A stretch of DNA of 32,000 bases, taken from Mycobacteroides sp. CBMA 271 (GTDB taxonomy: Bacteria; Actinomycetota; Actinomycetes; Mycobacteriales; Mycobacteriaceae). A program made the translations under genes and the position numbers. The notes beneath the pieces are model-generated. The model did not search any database, had not been told where the DNA came from, and was given only the letters and a program-made list of their open reading frames with translations. This document shows, piece after piece, positions 7,179 through 15,009 of this stretch (its first letter is position 1; each line of letters begins with the position of its first letter). The stretch lies in NCBI RefSeq assembly GCF_009729205.1, contig NZ_VTHB01000006.1:233546-265545 (forward strand), given 5' to 3'.

Positions 7179-7861
7179 GCGGGCGGTTGGTCCTGGTCCG
7201 CCATGGGCAGTCCTACGGAAACGTTGAGCGCAGACTCGACACCAAACCGCCGGGCGCTCCGCTGACCGATCTGGGGTTGCAGCAGGCTCGACTGTTCGCG
7301 GAGCAGTACGGGGGACATCCGCCGGCGGTGCTTATCCATTCGGTGGCGGTGCGCGCCGTGGAGACTGCCGCCGGTATCGCCGAACACCTTGGGGTGCAGG
7401 CGCTTGCGGCCGAGGGATTGCACGAGGTGCAGGCCGGCGAGCTGGAGGACCGCACCGACATGGAGGCATTTGAGATATTCGATCGCACCTATGAGCGTTG
7501 GCATTTCGGGGATCTCGACGCCCGGATGCCCGGCGGCGAGTCCGCCCAGGATGTTTTCGACAGGTACCTGCCGGTGGTCGCTGATCTGCGGTTGCGTCAC
7601 TTGGAGAACGATGCGTCGGCCGGGGATGTGGTGATAGTGAGCCATGGGGCGGCGATTCGCTTGGTGGGCGCGACCCTTGCCGGGGTGGATCCGGGTTTTG
7701 CGGTGAACCGTCACCTGCGCAATGCGGAAGCGGTTGTGTTGGCACCGATTACCGATGGCAGGTGGAGCTGCGTGCACTGGGGAGATGCGGCAGCGCCCTT
7801 CCCGCATCAGGTGGCGACCAGCGCCGAGGAGTTGGCGCAGTCGCCCGACCCGATGGGCTAG
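7175..7861 (+). CDS. Histidine phosphatase family protein (phosphoglycerate mutase-like)
   Basis: The start ATG at 7175 overlaps the pheA stop (ATGA). LVLVRHGQSYGN is the RHG catalytic motif and VIVSHGAAIR carries the second catalytic His. 228 aa. Confidence 0.85.
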   Translation: MSGRLVLVRHGQSYGNVERRLDTKPPGAPLTDLGLQQARLFAEQYGGHPPAVLIHSVAVRAVETAAGIAEHLGVQALAAEGLHEVQAGELEDRTDMEAFEIFDRTYERWHFGDLDARMPGGESAQDVFDRYLPVVADLRLRHLENDASAGDVVIVSHGAAIRLVGATLAGVDPGFAVNRHLRNAEAVVLAPITDGRWSCVHWGDAAAPFPHQVATSAEELAQSPDPMG

Positions 7862-8085
7862 CTCGCTTGCGCTATCTCATTCTCGCAATTGCATTGCGTA
7901 ACAATGCAATCGACGACGAGGCTGTGCCGTAGTAGGTAGGGTCCATCGCAGTCGGCGGCGGTGCACTCGGCGTAGCGAGCGGAATGCACGATCAACGTGC
8001 CGTGGCAATGATCAACGTCGCGGGCGCAGTCACGGCATGCAACACCGCAGCTGATGGCGTGCCGCCAGTCCGGTGACTTCTTCAT
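7858..8085 (-). CDS. Hypothetical small Cys/His-rich protein (75 aa)
   Basis: From Met 8085: MKKSPDWRHAISCGVACRDCARDVDHCHGTLIVHSARYAECTAADCDGPYLLRHSLVVDCIVTQCNCENEIAQAS, with 9 Cys. Third-position GC is only moderate, and the 3' end coincides with the AT-rich palindrome, so coding status is uncertain. No family recognised. Confidence 0.35.
   Translation of the reverse strand: MKKSPDWRHAISCGVACRDCARDVDHCHGTLIVHSARYAECTAADCDGPYLLRHSLVVDCIVTQCNCENEIAQAS
7883..7913. terminator. AT-rich imperfect inverted repeat just past the phosphatase stop (candidate terminator or protein-binding palindrome)
   Basis: attgcatt (7888..7895) pairs with aatgcaat (7903..7910) around the 7-nt loop gcgtaac. The stem extends by tcg/cga across a 2-nt bulge. 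The palindrome gcaattgc overlaps it. No T-tract follows. Confidence 0.35.
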
Positions 8086-8239
8086 ACCGGTGTTGTAGCA
8101 CCGGATACCGACAAGTGGTCGGAGGCGAGCGGGAACTACGGGAAGAAGCTGAACTCTTGCCGGGCATGCCGCCGCGCGGTTCTCCACCGTGCGGCGAATC
8201 CGAGCGACGAGCCTTGCGGTTCTTCACCACAGTTCCGGA

Positions 8240-9160
8240 TCAAGAGCCGTTCTTCTGTGAGTGGGTGGCCAAATTCGGCAGCGTCTGATCGGCGTAGCCG
8301 GCGTCGCACGCTTCCCGAAACGTCTCGGACGCCGCAGAGAGGGAACGAAGGTTCACTCCGCGCTCTGCTGCGGCGTCGACGGCCAGACGGATATCTTTCG
8401 CTGCGTTCTCTAGGGAGATAGACAGCGCATCGGCGTCTTCTTCTAGCAGGTACTCGGTTATTTTCTGGAATATGCCGCTGTTTGTAGAACCCATGGAAAC
8501 GATGCCGCGCAGCGCACGGAGGTCGACATCCATGCTGGAGGCCAGTTGGCATGCTTCCGATGCAACCGCCGAGATGCCCATGGTCATCGCGTTGTAGACG
8601 ATCTTCATTTTGTGCGCGGATCCCGTTGGACCTACGCGCATGATGGTGGCGCTGTAGGCCGCGACGACGTCGATGAACTCCTGGAAATTGTCGTCGCAGC
8701 CCAGCATGCTGTTGAGAGCTCCCCGGCGTGCTTGTTCCGGGGATCTGGTCACGGGGGCGTCGACGAATCGGATGCCGAGGGCGGCTGCTTGCGCGGCGAG
8801 TTCGATGGTCGAGTGCGGCCACGCGGTAGTGGTGTCCAGGACAATTGTCTTCGGGGCAAGACCAGCGAGCAGGCCTCCCTGGCGGCATACGGCCTCGACC
8901 TGGGCGCTTGACGGTAGGGACAGCACTACCACCGCACAACCGTCGGCCAGTTGGGACAGTGAGTGGCTCTCTGACGCCCCGTGTTCGACCAGTTCGTTTA
9001 CGCCTGATCGATCCTTGTTCGCCATGACCCGCAACTCGGCGCCTTGGCCCAGTAGGCATCGCCCTATCCCTGTGCCCATGCGGCCGGCACCCACTAGTCC
9101 TACCGTGCGCCCGGACAGCTCTGGTTTGGCATCGATCCGTAACGTCGTCGCGGTTGTCAT
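8240..9160 (-). CDS. NAD(P)-dependent beta-hydroxyacid dehydrogenase family oxidoreductase (3-hydroxyisobutyrate / tartronate-semialdehyde reductase-like)
   Basis: 306 aa. It has an N-terminal Rossmann motif VGLVGAGRMGTGIGRCLL, a DAPVT segment, and GSAHKMKIVYNAM containing the family catalytic Lys. The start overlaps the upstream HAD stop (ATGA at 9157..9160). Confidence 0.8.
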   Translation of the reverse strand: MTTATTLRIDAKPELSGRTVGLVGAGRMGTGIGRCLLGQGAELRVMANKDRSGVNELVEHGASESHSLSQLADGCAVVVLSLPSSAQVEAVCRQGGLLAGLAPKTIVLDTTTAWPHSTIELAAQAAALGIRFVDAPVTRSPEQARRGALNSMLGCDDNFQEFIDVVAAYSATIMRVGPTGSAHKMKIVYNAMTMGISAVASEACQLASSMDVDLRALRGIVSMGSTNSGIFQKITEYLLEEDADALSISLENAAKDIRLAVDAAAERGVNLRSLSAASETFREACDAGYADQTLPNLATHSQKNGS

Positions 9161-9813
9161 AGCAAGTTCTCACGTTTGAGGACAGTGAGCAGCTCGTTGT
9201 GGTCGCGCACAACGTGATCGGCGCCCGCATCGCGTAACCGCGTTTCGGATGCCATTCCACCCGTCATCGCAACGCTGGTGAGACCCAGGGATCGGGCGAT
9301 GCCGACTTCCTCGGGAGTGTCGCCGACGATCACGGTGCGCTGCGGTGAGATGTTCTGCTCACGCATGTACCGATCCAGCATCTCGCCCTTTGTGAATCCT
9401 TGGTACTGGGATTCCCGGCTGGCATAAGCCAAGATGTGGGCGATCTTGCTCTCCACCCCCAGCAGAGCGATGTGCTCGCGGATGAGGCTCTCGATGTGGT
9501 TGCTGAGAATCAGCACGTCCGCGGCGTCTTTGAAAGCCTCAAGCGCACGCTCGGCGCCGACACGCAACCGCGACGCGGCGGCTAACGGTTGGTAGCTGCC
9601 GAAGAACAGTTCGTTGTCGTTTTCTTGTGCCGCAGACGGCAGTCCCAGTTTCTCGTAGAGGCGGCTGAACGGGAATTCGCACACCGCACGCAATGTATCC
9701 ACGTCAATCTCAGCTAGCTTGAAATGAGTGAGGACGGCGTTGATCGACGTCGTGAACGCGCCGGCATCATCCAATAGCGTTCCGTTCCAGTCATAAACGA
9801 CGGTTAGACGCAT
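9157..9813 (-). CDS. HAD-IA superfamily hydrolase (phosphoglycolate-phosphatase-like) with an atypical motif I
   Basis: 218 aa. Motif I is VVYDWNGTLLDD, where Asn replaces the usual second Asp of DxDGT. Motif II is LILSN, the motif III Lys lies in FTKGE, and motif IV is VGDTPEE. Confidence 0.8.
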   Translation of the reverse strand: MRLTVVYDWNGTLLDDAGAFTTSINAVLTHFKLAEIDVDTLRAVCEFPFSRLYEKLGLPSAAQENDNELFFGSYQPLAAASRLRVGAERALEAFKDAADVLILSNHIESLIREHIALLGVESKIAHILAYASRESQYQGFTKGEMLDRYMREQNISPQRTVIVGDTPEEVGIARSLGLTSVAMTGGMASETRLRDAGADHVVRDHNELLTVLKRENLL

Positions 9814-9817
9814 CCGA

Positions 9818-11416
9818 TCACCCTGCCATCTCTTCCTTCCCGAGGTGCTGTTCGAGGATCCGTAGGTACTCCTCGTCAGCGCGGACTTGGCCTATCGGCG
9901 TAGGCATACGAAACGTAAAGGGTGAGCAATCGTAGTCGTACTCGCCGCCAGGCAGAACGCGCGTCAATCGATGAAAGGGTAGGTATGTAACGCGCGTGAC
10001 GCCGATGGCCTTGGCGACGAGCGACTCGAAGAAATTGAGCAATTGCGGGTTCCTGGAGTTCAATTCGAGCCACGGCCGCTCTGGTTTGAAGGCAAGGGAG
10101 CTCCAGATCTGCCAGAAAATCAGCTCTTCCAGTGAGTTGACCCCCAATCCGTAGTAGCTCGGGGAAATGAATGGCGGCGATCCCACCACCCAGTGCACTG
10201 AGTGTGCGCCAGCGTCGAACAGCAGTCGAGCCACGGCCTGGCTGGTGTCCCCGCGGATCAACGCCTCGTCTACCACGACGATGTCGCGGCCGGTGACATC
10301 GATATCCCGCAGGCTGTACTTGCGTTCGATCAGCGCTTTGCGTTCACCCGGGATGCCGATGAGAGTGCGCTGGAGCAGCCCGATCTCTACCAGCTCTTCC
10401 CGCACGACCGCTTTCCCGTGTGGGTGCGCCTGCAGATACTCAAAAAGCCCGTCGGCGTATGGAATACCCGTCTTTGGCATGGACGCAACAACGAGGCCAC
10501 CTGTCCCCGTTGTGGTCTCGCCCAGCAGGGCTCCCAGTTCGAAACCTATCTTCCGGCGGGTATCCCAATGTGTCTCGCCATGGAAACGGGTGCGCGGATG
10601 CCCTAGGTAGAGGGTTTCGAAGACACATTTCTTGGGTCGGTGCACGGCCCTTCCGACGCACCCCACCTTGATCTCGCCTTCGCAGGCCGAATCGATGATC
10701 GCGATCTGGCTCGGCTGCAGCTCGATGAGGCTACCCGTCTCGGCAATGGCACTGTCGATCTCAGAGGCCACCGCGATCACATCGGAACGCTGGAGCACGC
10801 CCAAGGGGCGTAGGCCCTGCCAATTTCGGTACGCCACGACAATCCCGGCATCGTCAACGAGAACCGCGCTCACTGCGCCGTCAACTTTGAGGTCGACTTC
10901 CCGGAAAACATCCACATAGTCGGGCCTAAGGCCGCGGTTCACATACTTTGACAGACAGATCTGCTCCACCACCCGCGTAAGGATCTCGACGTCCGATCCC
11001 GCCGAGATCTCCATCCCAGCCGCTGAGAGTTCTTGTGCCAGTTCCGAAGTGTTTACTAGCCCGCCATCCATTGCCACGTGCAGCGTAAACGGCGCCGCGG
11101 GCTGCACTCCGGTGACTGATCGATCCGAGGCAAACGGCTGGTTGCCCAAGTCGTTCGATGTCTGGTGAACGTGGCCTAGGAGTGCGCGTAGCGGTGTGTT
11201 CCCAAGGCCTTTCGCGAGTGCTGCCTCGTCCACGCGGACGGCGGGGAACTCCGACAGATACCCGGATGGGGCTCCGCTGTTTTGTTGAGCGATCAGTGAA
11301 AACCCCCGCTGTCCGCGATGGCTGAGCTGCGCGACTAGCTGGCTTATCAGCCCCGCATTCTCCGATGGTTCGATTCCGCCGCCGTCTGCCCTTGCCAATG
11401 CCAAAATGCCAGCCAT
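9818..11416 (-). CDS. Amidophosphoribosyltransferase (PurF)-like protein: degenerate class-II amidotransferase domain plus type I PRTase domain
   Basis: 532 aa, collinear with E. coli PurF as I recall it. Paired segments (this protein / PurF): MAGILAL / MCGIVGI, LSHRGQ / LQHRGQ, QPF / QPF, SDVEIL / SDSEIL, GLRPL / GIRPL, CVFETLYLGHP / CLFEYVYFARP, RTLIGIPGER / RTFIMPGQ, and the PRPP loop IVVVDEALIRGDTS / VLLVDDSIVRGTTS. Confidence 0.8.
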   Translation of the reverse strand: MAGILALARADGGGIEPSENAGLISQLVAQLSHRGQRGFSLIAQQNSGAPSGYLSEFPAVRVDEAALAKGLGNTPLRALLGHVHQTSNDLGNQPFASDRSVTGVQPAAPFTLHVAMDGGLVNTSELAQELSAAGMEISAGSDVEILTRVVEQICLSKYVNRGLRPDYVDVFREVDLKVDGAVSAVLVDDAGIVVAYRNWQGLRPLGVLQRSDVIAVASEIDSAIAETGSLIELQPSQIAIIDSACEGEIKVGCVGRAVHRPKKCVFETLYLGHPRTRFHGETHWDTRRKIGFELGALLGETTTGTGGLVVASMPKTGIPYADGLFEYLQAHPHGKAVVREELVEIGLLQRTLIGIPGERKALIERKYSLRDIDVTGRDIVVVDEALIRGDTSQAVARLLFDAGAHSVHWVVGSPPFISPSYYGLGVNSLEELIFWQIWSSLAFKPERPWLELNSRNPQLLNFFESLVAKAIGVTRVTYLPFHRLTRVLPGGEYDYDCSPFTFRMPTPIGQVRADEEYLRILEQHLGKEEMAG

Positions 11417-11978
11417 TTGAACCCCGACTTCCCAGTGCCTTGACTGTTGGAATCTTGCGTGGTTGCAACGCGAATCAGGTGGTGCTGCTCTCTCAGGCCC
11501 GCGCCTCGGAGCGCGACGGCGATGGCCGCTCCCAGTCTTCTAAGTCCAACACAGGCGAGGGTTACGCGCGCGCCGAAGATTTTCGATGACCTGCCTGCTG
11601 ACGAGTTGACCCGCCGTGGCACCGATGCCCATTCTCGCTAGAATTAATGAAAACCCTTCTGCTGCACAGGCATCGGGCACAACGTACTGCTTCGCAGGTG
11701 TTGGGGTGCGTACCGTAAGAAAAGCGCAAAGAGAATGGAGGTGATGTCGCCGGTCGGAACATTGATCGGGTGGATACCGGAAATTCCTTTAAGCGCAACC
11801 AGATTCCAAAGCCCGTGATTGCTCTAGATACTTGGCTCGCCCAGTTCGGCATGGCCCTGGCGGTCGCAGAGGGCACACGCTGTGATCGGTGTCGACGTGC
11901 AGATATCGGTGTCTTCGTCGAATCTGCTGCCGAACCCGGCGCCTTCGACCTGAACCCCGTGCTGGGGTTGGTCGGTGC

Positions 11979-13013
11979 TTACGATGTGCCTGGCTGGGAG
12001 TTGTCGAGTTCGGTGATCTGACGGATGAAGTGCGCCATGTCGTCGATGGCGGCGCGAGCATCCGGCAGAAAATCGGCGCCGATCTGGAAGTCATGTACTG
12101 CGTGATCCCAGATCTGTACCGTGCACGGGACGTTCGCCCCAGCGCAGCGCTGGGCCAACTGCTCTACATCTGCCAGCAGCACTTCGAGCGAGCCGACCTG
12201 AATGAAGGTCGGTGGCATCCCATTGAAGTCGTGATTCACCGGCGACCAAGCAGGATCCAACTGGCCGTCGGGGGCCATACCCATTTCGCCCGGCACCGCG
12301 AGGATAACGCCGGACAACATGGCGTCGTGTGCTTCGTTCGGGTGGCTCCTCTTGGCCGAACAATCGAGGTCTGCCCACGGTGAGATGGCGGCGATGCCAC
12401 CGGGCATCGGCAAGCCGGCCTCGCGGGTGGCGAGCGCCGCACTGAAGGCCAGACCGCCACCGGCGGAGTCGCCGGCGAACACGATCCTTTCGGCTGCGAA
12501 CCCCTGGTCGAGCAGGTACCGATAGGCCTCTACGGCATCCGCCACAGATTCGGTGACATGCGCCAGCGGCAGCTGCCGATAGTCCACCGCCAAAAGACGC
12601 ATTCCGGCCGCGCGGGCGACGCGTGCAGTCATCCGTCGATGGCTGTGTAGACCACCCAGAATGAACGCCCCGCCGTGGAAGTACAGAATCGCACCCTGCC
12701 CAGGATTCTCGGGATCGGGAAGGTTCTTGTGCCATAACCATTCCGCACGGAAGCTGGGGAATGTCACCGCGCGCCGCCGGGTGCCGAAGCTCGGCCGCAA
12801 GGGGAAGGCCGCTAGCTCCAGGAAGTTGGCAGCCCGAAAACCGCGTGTCCGCAGCGAGGGATGGCGCGCGGCGATTCGTGCCAGGCCCTCCAGCGGTCGT
12901 CGGAGCATCAGCCGCGCCGTGGAGTGGGAAAACCGTTGCAAGGCCGAGCCGCTACCCAGCCTATCGATGGTTACCGTGCCACCGGGTTCAGAGATAGGTG
13001 CAGGATCGTTCAT
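11979..13013 (-). CDS. Alpha/beta hydrolase fold-3 (hormone-sensitive-lipase family) esterase/lipase
   Basis: From Met 13013 (MNDPAPISEPGG...) the protein is 344 aa. It has the oxyanion motif YFHGGAFILGG, the nucleophile motif FAGDSAGGGLA, and a C-terminal catalytic His in WDHAVHDF. The 198 upstream codons in the ORF track are Arg-rich read-through. Confidence 0.85.
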   Translation of the reverse strand: MNDPAPISEPGGTVTIDRLGSGSALQRFSHSTARLMLRRPLEGLARIAARHPSLRTRGFRAANFLELAAFPLRPSFGTRRRAVTFPSFRAEWLWHKNLPDPENPGQGAILYFHGGAFILGGLHSHRRMTARVARAAGMRLLAVDYRQLPLAHVTESVADAVEAYRYLLDQGFAAERIVFAGDSAGGGLAFSAALATREAGLPMPGGIAAISPWADLDCSAKRSHPNEAHDAMLSGVILAVPGEMGMAPDGQLDPAWSPVNHDFNGMPPTFIQVGSLEVLLADVEQLAQRCAGANVPCTVQIWDHAVHDFQIGADFLPDARAAIDDMAHFIRQITELDNSQPGTS

Positions 13014-13192
13014 GCGAGCACCTCCACGGGCTGCTTCTCGTAGTCGAGAAGTTCCTCGCGGGTGCGTTGCTGGGATTCGGCGCGGCGGACCCGCTGTCGC
13101 TGGTCGGACACCGCCACCTCCTCGGTTGAGACATTTGGCGCAGAGGTCTGGATGTCTACTGCAGACAGTTTTGCATACTGCCGATATCCCAA
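13010..13192 (-). CDS. Candidate small ORF translationally coupled to the esterase (33-60 aa depending on start)
   Basis: The stop TGA overlaps the esterase ATG (gcATGAac). The 3' two-thirds has high third-position GC like real genes here. A GAGGAG Shine-Dalgarno-like element directly precedes GTG codons at 13117 and 13111, giving VSDQRQRVRRAESQQRTREELLDYEKQPVEVLA. No family recognised. Confidence 0.25.
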   Translation of the reverse strand: MGYRQYAKLSAVDIQTSAPNVSTEEVAVSDQRQRVRRAESQQRTREELLDYEKQPVEVLA

Positions 13193-13231
13193 GGGGGGCT
13201 GTTCTGGGCTGGCGCGGCCGGATGCCCGGAC

Positions 13232-13975
13232 CTATTCGATGCCGAGACTCTTGAGCGCGTGGGACATCCGCTGCGCTGTCGCCGGCGTCAGCGTCGCCCA
13301 CAGCGCACCGTCGCCGGAAGTGCTCGGTGTCGACATGATCCGGCCAAAGGCAGTGTCGTACACCCCAACTCCACCGGGTGCGCGATCGGTCACTCCGTCG
13401 ATTCGGCGGATTGCGGTGATCTCGGTCATCGCGCCGCGACGTGCCATCGCCTTCGCGACAGTGACCGCGTCGGCCTTGGTGGCGCCGAGTGCCATGAGTC
13501 GACGAGCCATATCGCCAGGCTCGGCATTGAGCGCCAAGGCAAGCTGTTCGGCAGGTGCGTTGATGGACCCGAACTTCAGCGGAGTGGCGTCGCCCAGATA
13601 CCGCCACAGCTCGGCACCGAGTGAACCGGTGACCGACCGCATGGCCACGCCCTCGCCGTCATTGACCAGCAGCACGTACGCCTCGCCATGCTCAACCAGG
13701 CACAGGCGCAGCATCTGCGACCCGGCCCAGCGCCGCACCGCGACCTGACCGGTGGCCTTGCTGGCCGAGGTCAACATGTCGCGCAGCGTCGGGTGAAGGT
13801 CCTCGCCCTTCAGCAGATTGCGTTCCTTGAGTCTGGTGCGTGCACCCTCCAGGGCATCCCGGTGCTCGACTTCGTCCTCATGGCGCGGACCGGCGGCCAA
13901 CACCACCGGCAACAGGTCATTGCCGGTGATCTCGCGGGTCAGTTCCAGTTCGTCGAAGTCCAGGCGGACGGTCAC
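13232..13975 (-). CDS. espG: EspG-family type VII secretion chaperone-like protein
   Basis: 247 aa, and the GTG start overlaps the PPE stop (GTGA). The N-terminus LDFDELELTREITGNDLLPVVL matches the EspG opening pattern (l..dE...l.e.lg...lP.vL). Size and later segments (TEITAIRR..., VGVYDTAFGRI, ALWATLTPAT) fit EspG architecture. The position directly after a PE-PPE pair is typical. Confidence 0.7.
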   Translation of the reverse strand: MTVRLDFDELELTREITGNDLLPVVLAAGPRHEDEVEHRDALEGARTRLKERNLLKGEDLHPTLRDMLTSASKATGQVAVRRWAGSQMLRLCLVEHGEAYVLLVNDGEGVAMRSVTGSLGAELWRYLGDATPLKFGSINAPAEQLALALNAEPGDMARRLMALGATKADAVTVAKAMARRGAMTEITAIRRIDGVTDRAPGGVGVYDTAFGRIMSTPSTSGDGALWATLTPATAQRMSHALKSLGIE

Positions 13976-15009
13976 AGGTCAGCGCTCGCGCCGAGAACCG
14001 GAGGGGCCACCGCTCCCTTGGAGCCGCCACGTTCGAACAGCTTTGAGGCGTCGACGTTCTCGAAGTCGGCGACCTTGTCGCTACCCGACTTGTTGGTCAG
14101 GATGTCCGGCAGGTCGACGGGCTTGCTCTCATCACCCATGAAGACGCCGGTGGCGCCGATGGCAGTGAGCTTGTCGTCGTCCTCGTCTTCATCCTTCTTG
14201 CCGCCGTTGCCGACCTTGACGCCCTTACTGGCAGCGGCGCCTGCAGCCATCGCGCCGCCGGCCATCATGCCGCCCATGCCGCCCATACCCATGCCCATGC
14301 CGGTACCGCTGGCAGAGGTCGGGTTGCCGGCCAGCGATACGGCGGCCGCTCGGGCGCTCTGTGTGCCGGGAACCGAGTCCGGGCTCAGTGGGCTCGGGCC
14401 CATCTCGGACATGCCGACTCCGGCTGCGCTGACGCCGGTGTTGCCGCTGTTGGCTCCCGACTTCTCCTCCGGGTACTTGATGACCTCGGGTGCAGGCGGG
14501 AATTCGACCACCTTGGAGGCCGGCTCGCTGGCCGACTCGTAGGTCTCCATGGCCTTCGCGGCCTGTAGGTCGAGGTCCTGCTCCATACCCTCGGTGGTCG
14601 CGGAGAGCCCGAACAGCGGTCCGCCTGCGGACAGTGCCTCAGCCTTGGCCTTCTCCAGCTGGGCCAGGTCGCTGATGTGCGGCATATCCAGGACAGCGGT
14701 GCCGTACGACTCGGCGTACGTGTTCGAGGTATCGCTGACCTCCTGGGTCAGACCCGCCATCTTCTCCACCCACTCGGTGAAGGGGGTCAGCTTGGTCAGC
14801 GCGTCCTCGGCATGCGGCCCGCGGTACCCCTCGGTGAGCAGTTCGCCCACGCGCAGGCTGTTCTCGTGCACCTCGGCGAACGCGGTGCTGATCTCTTGCC
14901 AGGCCAGCGCACTGTCCACGACGTGAGTCGGTCCAGCGCCCGTGGTCAGGTCCAGGGCCAACCTCTTCGCCTTGCGTGCAACCCAGTTGACGCCAGTGAA
15001 TCCGGTCAT
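13972..15009 (-). CDS. Divergent PPE-family protein (no literal Pro-Pro-Glu motif) with a Gly/Met-rich and acidic C-terminal region
   Basis: 345 aa. The N-terminal ~170 aa follow the PPE helical pattern: TTGAGPTHVVDSALAWQEISTAFAE..., YRGPHAEDALTKLTPFTEWVEKMAGLTQEVSDTSNTYAESYGTAV (compare W.G.AS.AM..A..PY..WL...A..AE.....A..AA.AYE.A). It lies 3 nt downstream of a PE-like gene. Confidence 0.65.
   Translation of the reverse strand: MTGFTGVNWVARKAKRLALDLTTGAGPTHVVDSALAWQEISTAFAEVHENSLRVGELLTEGYRGPHAEDALTKLTPFTEWVEKMAGLTQEVSDTSNTYAESYGTAVLDMPHISDLAQLEKAKAEALSAGGPLFGLSATTEGMEQDLDLQAAKAMETYESASEPASKVVEFPPAPEVIKYPEEKSGANSGNTGVSAAGVGMSEMGPSPLSPDSVPGTQSARAAAVSLAGNPTSASGTGMGMGMGGMGGMMAGGAMAAGAAASKGVKVGNGGKKDEDEDDDKLTAIGATGVFMGDESKPVDLPDILTNKSGSDKVADFENVDASKLFERGGSKGAVAPPVLGASADL

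What the first reader, a model, noticed from the sequence alone, without database searches (positions are those of the whole stretch)
8240..11416. Tightly coupled PurF-like / HAD / beta-hydroxyacid-dehydrogenase operon with no recognisable pathway
Three minus-strand genes are packed with a 4-nt gap (9814..9817) and an ATGA overlap (9157..9160). A ~560-bp untranslated stretch precedes them. The set combines a PRPP-type phosphoribosyltransferase whose glutaminase half looks inactive, a phosphatase-type HAD enzyme and an NAD(P) oxidoreductase. That reads like a short pathway: phosphoribosylate an acceptor from PRPP, remove the 5'-phosphate, then oxidise or reduce. This is a hypothesis. No purine-biosynthesis neighbours (purM, purL and so on) are present. 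I do not recognise the trio as a described pathway. It also sits in a block that I do not recall in the M. tuberculosis serS-pheA region.
Basis: partly seen in the sequence, partly recalled or inferred. Interest (0 to 1): 0.7.

Follow-up and report, generated by a model that had tools for sequence, protein, structure and literature searches.

The report
Mobile cysteine-less PurF, HAD, reductase cassette
Three tightly packed genes in this soil mycobacterium form a horizontally transferred enzyme cassette of unknown product, and nitrogen-fixing legume symbionts carry the same cassette on their symbiosis DNA and switch it on with the nitrogen-fixation regulator.

Summary
Three minus-strand ORFs (9818-11416, 9157-9813, 8240-9160) are joined by a 4-nt gap and an ATGA overlap, after a 562-nt leader.

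The genes are real (dN/dS 0.10-0.20 against M. abscessus). They form a self-contained cassette that recurs in M. abscessus, Bradyrhizobium (symbiosis islands and plasmids, once in two copies), Rhizobium, Paraburkholderia and an unidentified bacterium. Flanks always differ and are often next to IS elements or integrases.

- **Protein 1** has the full PurF fold and PRPP loop, but no family member has the N-terminal cysteine. It cannot be a glutamine amidotransferase.
- **Protein 2** is a HAD enzyme with the motif D-W-N-G-T, so the general acid/base Asp is Asn.
- **Protein 3** is a beta-hydroxyacid-dehydrogenase-type reductase, probably NADPH-dependent, with an unusual V-T-R-S substrate loop.

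All six alpha-rhizobial copies have a perfect sigma-54 promoter. The P. phymatum homologue is strongly NifA-dependent in nodules (published RNA-seq). A variant cassette pairs the same HAD and reductase with a PRPP-synthetase-like gene.

No described pathway matches. My best reading is a glutamine-independent phosphoribosyl-transfer, reduction and dephosphorylation route. The product is unknown. This is a new variant of a known logic and moderately to highly interesting.

The parts
9818..11416 (-). PurF-like phosphoribosyltransferase, 532 aa. It has both PurF domains but lacks the Cys1 nucleophile (N-terminus MAGILAL). The PRPP loop VDEALIRGDTS (382-392) and the flexible-loop residues R350/T351/R359/K366 are conserved. 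A family-specific insertion of about 25 aa follows YYG, and the protein has a long C-terminal tail.
   Evidence: purF TIGR01134 at 107 bits vs cut-off 350; alignments; PDB profile best hits are PurF, 2e-47; AF2 model pLDDT 69; Foldseek top hits PurF, TM 0.60-0.73; no MC- start in any member.
9157..9813 (-). HAD-superfamily enzyme, 218 aa, PGP-like (COG0546-type) subfamily. Motif I is D8-W-N10-G-T. The Asp nucleophile, S104, K142 and D165/E169 (Mg site) are kept, but the Asp+2 general acid/base is replaced by Asn.
   Evidence: invariant DWNGTLLDD in 7 cassette copies; 107 of 120 subfamily hits read DWNGT.
8240..9160 (-). Beta-hydroxyacid-dehydrogenase-family oxidoreductase, 306 aa. It has the Rossmann motif GAGRMG and the catalytic Lys (K186, in HKMKIVYN). 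An N-K-x-R motif after beta2 suggests NADP(H). The invariant substrate loop is D-A-P-V-T-R-S-P-E rather than the usual V-S-G-G.
   Evidence: best hit L-threonate DH at 113 bits vs cut-off 350; Lys aligns with the residue mutated in 3w6z; invariant columns; loop aligns with YihU V-G-R-T-S.
11417..11978 (-). 562-nt leader or intergenic region upstream of the cassette. It is host-specific and not part of the transferred unit.
   Evidence: No Rfam hit. One chance-level sigma-70-like site on the opposite strand. No sigma-54 motif. DNA homology to M. abscessus stops at 11405. Weak codon-position signal.
8253..11405 (-). Block of DNA homology (81% over 3160 nt) with the M. abscessus cassette. It coincides with the three coding regions and nothing else.
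   Evidence: blastn L001 96-3252 against window 11405-8253. Cassette GC is 0.605 against 0.646 for the rest of the window.

Best explanation
The three genes are one horizontally mobile metabolic cassette. They are not part of purine biosynthesis.

**Shown:**
- The cassette is conserved intact, with coupled junctions, in Mycobacterium sp. CBMA271, M. abscessus, Bradyrhizobium, Rhizobium, Paraburkholderia and an unidentified bacterium of about 46% GC.
- Only the coding block is shared between hosts. Its GC is below the flanks in every high-GC host.
- All three genes are under purifying selection.
- In alpha-rhizobia every copy sits behind a sigma-54 (-24/-12) promoter on symbiosis islands or plasmids. 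The P. phymatum homologue needs NifA for expression in nodules.

**Inferred mechanism:**
- Protein 1 keeps PurF's PRPP site and closing loop but has no glutaminase nucleophile. It would therefore transfer the 5-phosphoribosyl group of PRPP to free ammonia or another amine, without glutamine. That suits ammonia-rich bacteroids.
- The reductase (Lys catalyst, apparently NADPH-type, with a loop like that of an anion-binding aldehyde reductase) would then reduce the open-chain, still phosphorylated product.
- The atypical HAD (D-x-N) would remove or transfer the phosphate.
- The result would be an amino-pentose or pentitol-type small molecule.

The order of steps, the acceptor and the product are not established. 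In the mycobacterium the cassette is a foreign insertion expressed from a host-specific leader.
For: - **Conservation and order:**
- **Unit of transfer is the coding block:**
- **GC below flanks:**
- **dN/dS 0.155, 0.095 and 0.201:**
- **PurF fold with PRPP loop but no Cys1:**. The N-terminal 110 aa are the least conserved (13-20% identity between mycobacteria and rhizobia) and the PRTase core the most (about 50%).
- **Sigma-54 promoter TGG[CT]A[CT]-N5-TTGCT 70-167 nt upstream in 6 of 6 alpha-rhizobial copies:**. These are 5 of only 7 strict matches in 267 kb searched and the only conserved upstream block.
- **Perfect NifA UAS about 100 nt upstream in L089 and L094:**
- **Published RNA-seq:** BPHY_RS40825/Bphy_7471 has log2FC -5.75 in nifA-mutant bacteroids (PMC8305402). 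This is the same locus tag as hit H11.
- **Link to phosphoribosyl chemistry:** variant cassette L098 has orthologous HAD (43% identity) and reductase (48%, same motifs) next to a Prs-like ribose-phosphate diphosphokinase that passes the TIGR01251 cut-off.
- **Precedent:** Cys1 mutants lose the glutamine-dependent function, and Cys-less archaeal PurF' has been proposed to be ammonia-dependent (PMC3261824).
Against: - No enzyme activity or product is known.
- The HAD lacks the Asp+2 general acid/base that phosphatases normally need. More distant members of the same HAD subfamily sit inside suf Fe-S operons, which does not fit a simple sugar-phosphate phosphatase.
- The reductase has been lost in B. 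elkanii and in strain BWA-3-5, and the cassette is reduced to a truncated first gene in P. phymatum. Selection in rhizobia is therefore not absolute.
- Phosphoribosylamine is very unstable, so a pathway through it needs tight coupling.
- In L098 the PurF-like gene is absent, so the HAD-reductase pair does not strictly need it.
- Sigma-54/NifA control cannot apply in mycobacteria, where expression and role are unknown.
Confidence: 0.55

Rival explanations
1. It is an auxiliary ammonia-dependent PurF. Protein 1 simply makes phosphoribosylamine for purine or thiamine synthesis when ammonia is abundant and glutamine scarce (as in bacteroids). The HAD and reductase would be accessory or unrelated passengers.
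For: PurF fold and PRPP loop are retained. Expression is NifA-dependent in nodules. A Cys-less archaeal PurF' has been proposed to be ammonia-dependent.
Against: The three genes travel as one unit with coupled junctions in five genera. The HAD and reductase are co-inherited, with identities as high as or higher than protein 1. The HAD-reductase pair persists without PurF-like in L098. No purine genes are adjacent in any locus.
Confidence: 0.15
2. It is a catabolic or detoxifying cassette for an anionic (phospho-, sulfo- or phosphono-) sugar or aldehyde. The PurF-like protein would act as a nucleotide- or PRPP-binding or regulatory subunit rather than a transferase.
For: The reductase loop V-T-R-S resembles sulfolactaldehyde reductase YihU (pocket described in PMC8006165). 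HAD motif I (D-W-N-G-T) is non-canonical. In Bradyrhizobium the cassette lies near sugar ABC transporter, ribokinase and PEP-hydrolase genes in two loci.
Against: No transporter or regulator is conserved with the cassette. The YihU pocket residues Asn174 and Ser178 are Tyr and Thr here. The PRTase core is the best conserved part of protein 1. The L098 variant adds a PRPP-synthetase-like gene, which points to synthesis from PRPP.
Confidence: 0.15
3. It is a set of catalytically impaired pseudoenzymes or decaying genes with no current metabolic role in the mycobacterium.
For: Protein 1 lacks Cys1 and the HAD lacks Asp+2. Truncated or partial copies occur in rhizobia. The cassette is rare in mycobacteria.
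Against: dN/dS is 0.10-0.20 for all three genes between the two mycobacterial copies. Many catalytic and ligand motifs are invariant across phyla. The reading frames are intact and coupled.
Confidence: 0.07
4. It is an anti-phage defence system or a self-resistance copy of PurF against a PurF inhibitor.
For: The cassette is mobile and sits next to integrases or IS elements. PurF is a known inhibitor target (PDB 8w7d).
Against: No PADLOC hit for any of the genes. A resistance copy would need Cys1 and glutamine-dependent activity, which the family lacks. NifA-controlled nodule expression does not fit defence.
Confidence: 0.03

Closest known systems
Glutamine PRPP amidotransferase PurF (TIGR01134; PDB 1ECF, 1AO0, 6LBP)
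   Same: Two-domain Ntn plus type I PRTase fold. RGQ motif, oxyanion Gly, Asp127 equivalent, PRPP loop (D-[DE]-x-x-x-R-G-x-T) and flexible-loop R-T-x-I are all kept.
   Different: No N-terminal Cys (Ala, Ser or Asp-Arg instead). Arg73 and Tyr74 are lost in the mycobacterial copies. Three of four Fe-S cysteines are absent. There is a 25-aa insertion and a long C-terminal tail. The score is 107 bits against a cut-off of 350. The gene is not in a purine context and is always linked to a HAD and a reductase.
Crenarchaeal PurF' (Cys-less PurF paralogue; PMC3261824)
   Same: A PurF paralogue lacking the N-terminal Cys (Ala or Val), with the proposal that it may use ammonia directly.
   Different: PurF' lies next to purF and other purine genes. 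This family is bacterial and mobile, sits in a three-gene cassette without purine genes, and is NifA-regulated in rhizobia.
Ribosyl-transfer, dephosphorylation and redox logic: the mycobacterial decaprenyl-phospho-arabinose route (Rv3806c, Rv3807c, DprE1/E2), and the riboflavin steps RibD reductase plus HAD phosphatase (my own knowledge, not tested here)
   Same: A PRPP-derived or ribosylamino 5'-phosphate intermediate is reduced or oxidised and then dephosphorylated. In riboflavin synthesis the phosphatase is a HAD enzyme.
   Different: The enzyme families for transfer and redox are entirely different (UbiA-type, DprE, RibD). The acceptor here is unknown.
Sulfolactaldehyde reductase YihU and other beta-hydroxyacid dehydrogenases (HIBADH, tartronate semialdehyde reductase, L-threonate DH, archaeal L-serine DH 3W6U)
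   Same: Same fold, Rossmann motif and catalytic Lys. The substrate loop V-x-R-(S/T) is shared only with YihU among the aligned structures.
   Different: All equivalog cut-offs are missed by more than 230 bits. YihU pocket residues Asn174 and Ser178 are Tyr and Thr here. The family-specific motifs PVTRSPE and STNSGIFQ are invariant.
Rhizopine (mos) genes: a NifA-controlled small-molecule synthesis cassette on Sym plasmids (my own knowledge)
   Same: A small biosynthetic cassette on symbiosis DNA, expressed in bacteroids from a sigma-54/NifA promoter, with patchy strain distribution.
   Different: The proteins are unrelated. No catabolic counterpart or transporter has been identified for the present cassette.

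Membership tests
PurF (glutamine PRPP amidotransferase) | N-terminal Cys nucleophile exposed after Met or propeptide removal | tested here: not met
   The window protein starts MAGILAL, M. abscessus MDRGLAL, rhizobia MSG(V/I)A and Paraburkholderia MAGIAAAF. No MC- start occurs in about 50 family members.
PurF (glutamine PRPP amidotransferase) | Type I PRTase PRPP-binding loop and flexible loop | tested here: met
   VDEALIRGDTS is invariant. R350, T351, R359 and K366 are invariant.
PurF (glutamine PRPP amidotransferase) | Score above the TIGR01134 equivalog cut-off (350 bits) | tested here: not met
   106.9 bits.
PurF (glutamine PRPP amidotransferase) | Two-domain PurF fold | tested here: met
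   Foldseek top hits are 6lbp, 6czf, 1ao0 and 1ecf, E about 1e-26, TM 0.60-0.73. The model has pLDDT of only 69.
PurF (glutamine PRPP amidotransferase) | Glutamine-dependent PRA synthesis or complementation of purF auxotrophy | not testable with these tools
   Needs enzymology or genetics.
HAD-superfamily phosphatase | Motif I D-x-D-x-(T/V): Asp nucleophile plus Asp+2 general acid/base | tested here: not met
   The motif is D8-W-N10-G-T. The nucleophile is present, but Asp+2 is Asn in all 7 cassette copies and in 107 of 120 subfamily hits (Asn in 118 of the 119 legible N-termini).
HAD-superfamily phosphatase | Motifs II-IV (Ser/Thr; Lys; acidic Mg2+ ligands) | tested here: met
   S104, K142, D165 and E169 are invariant. 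The Pfam families HAD_2 and Hydrolase score above their cut-offs.
Beta-hydroxyacid dehydrogenase (HIBADH/TSR/6PGDH-like) | N-terminal Rossmann GxGxxG plus NAD_binding_11 helical domain | tested here: met
   PF03446 at 101.6 bits and PF14833 at 54 bits. GAGRMG is conserved in six of the seven copies (GVGRIG in L092).
Beta-hydroxyacid dehydrogenase (HIBADH/TSR/6PGDH-like) | Catalytic Lys in the G-x-x-x-K-x-x-x-N motif | tested here: met
   K186 is invariant and aligns with the Lys that is mutated to Met in 3w6z.
Beta-hydroxyacid dehydrogenase (HIBADH/TSR/6PGDH-like) | Canonical substrate loop D-A-P-V-S-G-G and membership of a named equivalog | tested here: not met
   The loop is D-A-P-V-T-R-S-P-E. 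The best equivalog (L-threonate DH) scores 113 bits against 350.
NifA/sigma-54 regulon (rhizobial homologues only) | -24/-12 promoter TGGCAC-N5-TTGCW upstream of the operon | tested here: met
   Found in 6 of 6 alpha-rhizobial copies, 70-167 nt before the ATG. These are 5 of 7 strict matches in the 267 kb searched. Not found in the window, L001, L092 or L093.
NifA/sigma-54 regulon (rhizobial homologues only) | NifA upstream activator sequence TGT-N10-ACA about 100 nt upstream | tested here: inconclusive
   Perfect at -102 (L089) and -98 (L094). One mismatch in L088 and L005. A distant site in L004. None upstream in L002.
NifA/sigma-54 regulon (rhizobial homologues only) | Expression lost in a nifA mutant | tested here: met
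   Published data: BPHY_RS40825/Bphy_7471 has log2FC -5.75 in P. phymatum nifA bacteroids (PMC8305402). Not tested for Bradyrhizobium, and not applicable to the window.

The most novel reading that the evidence does not exclude
The Cys-less PurF-like enzyme has a new acceptor specificity: an amine or other nucleophile instead of glutamine-derived ammonia. Together with the D-x-N HAD and the V-T-R-S reductase it would make a previously unknown ribosyl- or ribityl-amine-type metabolite. Bacteroids would produce this under NifA control as a symbiosis-specific compound (signal, nutritional mediator or nitrogen carrier). Soil mycobacteria, including some M. abscessus strains, would have acquired the same cassette horizontally.
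Probability: 0.25. Interest if true: 0.8.

Novelty: new variant of a known kind. Interest (0 to 1): 0.6.

Why it matters
- It defines a compact, mobile, three-enzyme module that is uncharacterised and strongly NifA-dependent in nodules. It is widespread on Bradyrhizobium symbiosis islands and plasmids, so it is a concrete candidate for an unknown bacteroid metabolite.
- It corrects the current annotations ("amidophosphoribosyltransferase", [quoted passage not shown]). No family member has the glutaminase nucleophile.
- It offers two enzymological puzzles that three recombinant proteins could address: a PurF scaffold without Cys1, and a large HAD subfamily with Asn at Asp+2, some members of which sit inside suf operons.
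- It documents gene flow between rhizobial symbiosis DNA and mycobacteria, including the opportunistic pathogen M. abscessus.

Tried and rejected
- **Genome-wide locus scan:** wasted. I replaced it with neighbourhood look-ups, a plasmid tblastn and an exhaustive HMMER search.
- **Riboswitch or leader RNA:** no Rfam match in 7800-12400. Promoter and terminator scans were at chance level.
- **Defence system:** no PADLOC hit.
- **Transposon ends:** no direct or inverted repeats bracket the cassette.
- **Phosphonatase reading of the D-W-x-G-T HAD:** rejected. There is no invariant cap-domain Lys, and only weak C-terminal hits to PhnX models.
- **Imine-reductase reading of protein 3:** rejected. 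The catalytic Lys is retained.
- **Structure of the 383-aa orphan in variant cassette L098:** AF2 gave pLDDT 39.5, which is unusable, and there was no PDB or Pfam hit. Its F-R-D-x4-N ... D-F-E motifs look kinase-like, but this is unverified.
- **Host of L093:** no plasmid match.
- **Literature:** four searches for a described pathway found nothing.
- **Canonical purF in the CBMA271 genome:** I did not check whether a second, canonical purF exists there.


Full report
**1. Observation**

The junctions are as described. They read TGA-tcgg-ATG (4-nt gap) and CTATGA (ATGA overlap).

The next credible upstream gene is an Abhydrolase_3 esterase that ends at 11979. This leaves a 562-nt leader. The leader has no Rfam match, no above-chance promoter or terminator signal and only a weak codon-position GC signal. 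By contrast, the three genes show the normal coding pattern, with GC3 of 0.71-0.73.

**2. Host and setting**

The 532-aa protein is 100% identical to a protein of Mycobacterium sp. CBMA271. The window carries, in order:
- pheA (PDT+ACT)
- a His_Phos_1 phosphatase
- a 109-aa orphan ORF
- the trio
- an esterase
- EspG
- a PPE protein
- a Septum_form protein
- serS

. The cassette therefore lies inside extra DNA in the pheA-serS interval. Its GC is 0.605, against 0.646 for the rest of the window.

**3. The trio is a conserved, mobile unit**

The same three genes, in the same order, occur in the loci below.

| Locus | Host | Setting |
|---|---|---|
| L001 | M. abscessus | 82/85/79% aa identity; next to three tyrosine recombinases |
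| L002/L003 | Bradyrhizobium sp. CCGB12 | Between nodIJ-nolO-nodZ and fixA-nifA-fixR |
| L004 | Rhizobium mongolense | After an IS fragment |
| L088, L094 | B. guangxiense symbiosis plasmid p53363 | Two copies; L094 is 3.4 kb from nodU |
| L092 | Paraburkholderia sp. CNPSo 3076 | Between two transposases |
| L093 | Unidentified, about 46% GC | No informative flanks |

- A tblastn search of PLSDB found the first gene on ten Bradyrhizobium symbiosis plasmids and on P. phymatum pBPHY02.
- Junctions are -4 to +10 nt in most copies.
- Between the two mycobacteria, DNA similarity (81%) covers window 8253-11405 only, which is just the coding block.
- dN/dS is 0.155, 0.095 and 0.201 for the three genes.
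- In every high-GC host the cassette is less GC-rich than its flanks. In L093 and L098 it matches them. This suggests a lower-GC donor.
- Decay also occurs. The reductase is missing in B. elkanii and in strain BWA-3-5. P. phymatum keeps only a truncated first gene.

**4. Protein 1: PurF-like**

It has the PurF fold over both domains. A profile search of the PDB gives PurF at 2e-47. An AF2 model (pLDDT 69) matches PurF structures with TM 0.60-0.73.

The PRPP loop (VDEALIRGDTS) and the flexible-loop residues are invariant. However, it scores only 107 bits on the purF equivalog model, whose cut-off is 350.

No family member begins with Met-Cys. Rhizobia have MSG, Paraburkholderia and the window have MAG, and M. 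abscessus has MDRG. In the mycobacterial copies the Arg73 and Asn101 equivalents are also changed.

The N-terminal 110 residues are the least conserved part (13-20% identity between mycobacteria and rhizobia). The PRTase core is the most conserved (about 50%).

An exhaustive HMMER search shows that the Cys-less clade is small: Bradyrhizobium, Rhizobium, Paraburkholderia, mycobacteria and one unknown organism. A sister tier shares the long C-terminal tail but keeps Met-Cys and sits in other contexts: a glycan cluster (L090) and upstream of a his operon (L091). The loss of Cys1 therefore coincides with the association with the HAD and reductase genes.

A precedent exists in the Cys-less PurF' of Crenarchaeota, which has been proposed to be ammonia-dependent (PMC3261824).

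**5. Protein 2: HAD**

It is a HAD of the PGP-like type. Motif I is D-W-N-G-T in all seven cassette copies and in 107 of 120 subfamily hits. The Asp nucleophile, motif II Ser, motif III Lys and the Mg ligands are kept. The Asp+2 general acid/base is Asn. It is therefore a member of the HAD superfamily but not a canonical phosphatase.

More distant members (35-38% identity) are embedded between sufC and sufD in suf operons. I cannot explain this.

**6. Protein 3: reductase**

It belongs to the beta-hydroxyacid dehydrogenase family. The catalytic Lys is retained, which rules out an imine-reductase type. An N-K-x-R motif occupies the position that is N-R-T-R in the NADP-dependent archaeal L-serine dehydrogenase. 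From this I infer NADP(H) use.

The substrate loop is invariantly D-A-P-V-T-R-S-P-E rather than V-S-G-G. Among the aligned solved structures, only sulfolactaldehyde reductase YihU has the matching V-G-R-T-S. YihU's sulfonate pocket uses Asn174, Ser178 and the backbone of Arg123 (PMC8006165). Here those side chains are Tyr and Thr, so the resemblance is partial. I take it as a weak hint that the substrate carries a bulky anion such as a phosphate.

**7. Regulation in rhizobia**

All six alpha-rhizobial copies carry a strict sigma-54 element, TGG[CT]A[CT]-N5-TTGCT, 70-167 nt before the start codon. Five of the seven strict matches in 267 kb of searched sequence (both strands) are these sites. 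The element is the only conserved block in otherwise divergent upstream DNA.

A perfect NifA upstream activator sequence (TGT-N10-ACA) lies about 100 nt further upstream in L089 and L094. L088 and L005 have one-mismatch versions.

Independent published evidence agrees. In P. phymatum, BPHY_RS40825 (Bphy_7471) is exactly the homologue I found on pBPHY02. It falls by log2FC -5.75 in nifA-mutant bacteroids, which places it among the most NifA-dependent genes (PMC8305402).

The mycobacterial, Paraburkholderia CNPSo 3076 and L093 copies lack this promoter. Regulation is therefore host-specific. It is established knowledge that Actinobacteria lack sigma-54.

**8. A variant cassette ties the HAD-reductase pair to phosphoribosyl chemistry**

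Locus L098 is a plasmid-like contig with relaxase and NikA-like genes. It carries:
- an orthologous HAD (43% identity, motif DWNGT)
- an orthologous reductase (48% identity, same PVTRSPE and STNSGIFQ motifs, ATGA-type overlap with the HAD)
- upstream, a 383-aa orphan protein
- downstream, a Prs-like ribose-phosphate diphosphokinase (TIGR01251 at 131 bits, cut-off 113)

. It has no PurF-like gene. The orphan has only two homologues. Both appear to be on contigs that also carry this HAD type, judging by matching contig lengths.

**9. Interpretation**

*Shown:*
- The trio is a real operon.
- It is a conserved mobile cassette under purifying selection.
- Protein 1 has a PurF scaffold with a PRPP site and no glutaminase nucleophile.
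- The HAD is non-canonical.
- The reductase retains its catalytic Lys.
- Rhizobial copies have sigma-54/NifA wiring.

*Inferred:*
- Protein 1 transfers the phosphoribosyl group from PRPP to ammonia or another amine, without glutamine.
- NADPH-dependent reduction follows.
- Phosphate is then removed or transferred.
- The product is a small amino-sugar or amino-polyol.

Neither the product nor the step order is known.

*Rivals:*
- a stand-alone ammonia-dependent PurF
- a catabolic module for an anionic sugar or aldehyde
- pseudoenzymes
- a defence or self-resistance system

These are weighed in the rival-explanations section of this report. The last two are poorly supported.

**10. Novelty**

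I found no paper describing this trio. Existing annotations call protein 1 an amidophosphoribosyltransferase or a class-II glutamine amidotransferase, which the missing Cys contradicts.

The logic of ribosyl transfer, redox and dephosphorylation has precedents: decaprenyl-phospho-arabinose synthesis, riboflavin synthesis and several nucleoside antibiotics (from my own knowledge). The enzyme families and the symbiosis context here are new. I rate it a new variant of a known kind, with interest about 0.6.

Noticed in passing
L095 7001-7708; L096 7001-7687; L097 764-1450; L099 7001-7684: More distant members of the same D-W-N-(G/S)-T HAD subfamily are inserted between sufC and sufD in suf Fe-S assembly operons (Rrf2-sufB-sufC-HAD-sufD-sufS-NifU_N-FeS_assembly_P), with overlapping starts and stops. 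I found no described role for a HAD enzyme there.
   Followed up: partly
L098 490-4558: Variant cassette on a relaxase-bearing contig: a 383-aa orphan, then the DWN-HAD, the VTRSPE reductase and a 403-aa Prs-like ribose-phosphate diphosphokinase. The orphan has no Pfam, NCBIfam or PDB hit and only two homologues. Its F-R-D-P-I-L-T-N and D-F-E motifs look like a small-molecule kinase catalytic loop. The AF2 model was unusable (pLDDT 39.5).
   Followed up: partly
L088 8683-11871 and L094 4695-7882 (NZ_CP022220.1, B. guangxiense p53363): The symbiosis plasmid carries two complete copies of the cassette about 33 kb apart, each with its own sigma-54 promoter. One copy is 3.4 kb from nodU.
   Followed up: partly
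L090 8001-9659; L091 8001-9689: A sister clade of long-tailed PurF-like proteins keeps the Met-Cys N-terminus but is not linked to HAD or reductase genes. One member sits in a sugar/glycan-modification cluster. Another lies directly upstream of a complete his operon (hisG-D-C/B-H-A-F-IE).
   Followed up: no
window 11979-15009: Next to the cassette, and also absent from the canonical pheA-serS interval as far as I can tell, are an Abhydrolase_3 esterase, an EspG and a PPE gene. That is an orphan ESX-associated pair outside any ESX locus, at host-like GC (0.65-0.67).
   Followed up: no
window 7858-8187 (-): A 109-aa Cys-rich ORF lies 52 nt downstream of the cassette and converges on the His_Phos_1 gene. 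Its codon-position GC looks coding-like, but it has no Pfam or PADLOC hit and is not shared with M. abscessus.
   Followed up: partly
L087 7711-7726: In P. phymatum pBPHY02 the only strict sigma-54 element near the truncated PurF-like gene (9010-10167) lies 1.3 kb upstream, before an unannotated 203-aa ORF (8081-8692). This may be the NifA-dependent promoter behind the published expression change.
   Followed up: no
L005 3084-5154; L094 9281-10960: In two Bradyrhizobium loci the cassette lies near UPF0261/PEP-hydrolase-family genes and sugar ABC transporter or ribokinase genes. This may be symbiosis-island synteny or a functional link.
   Followed up: no
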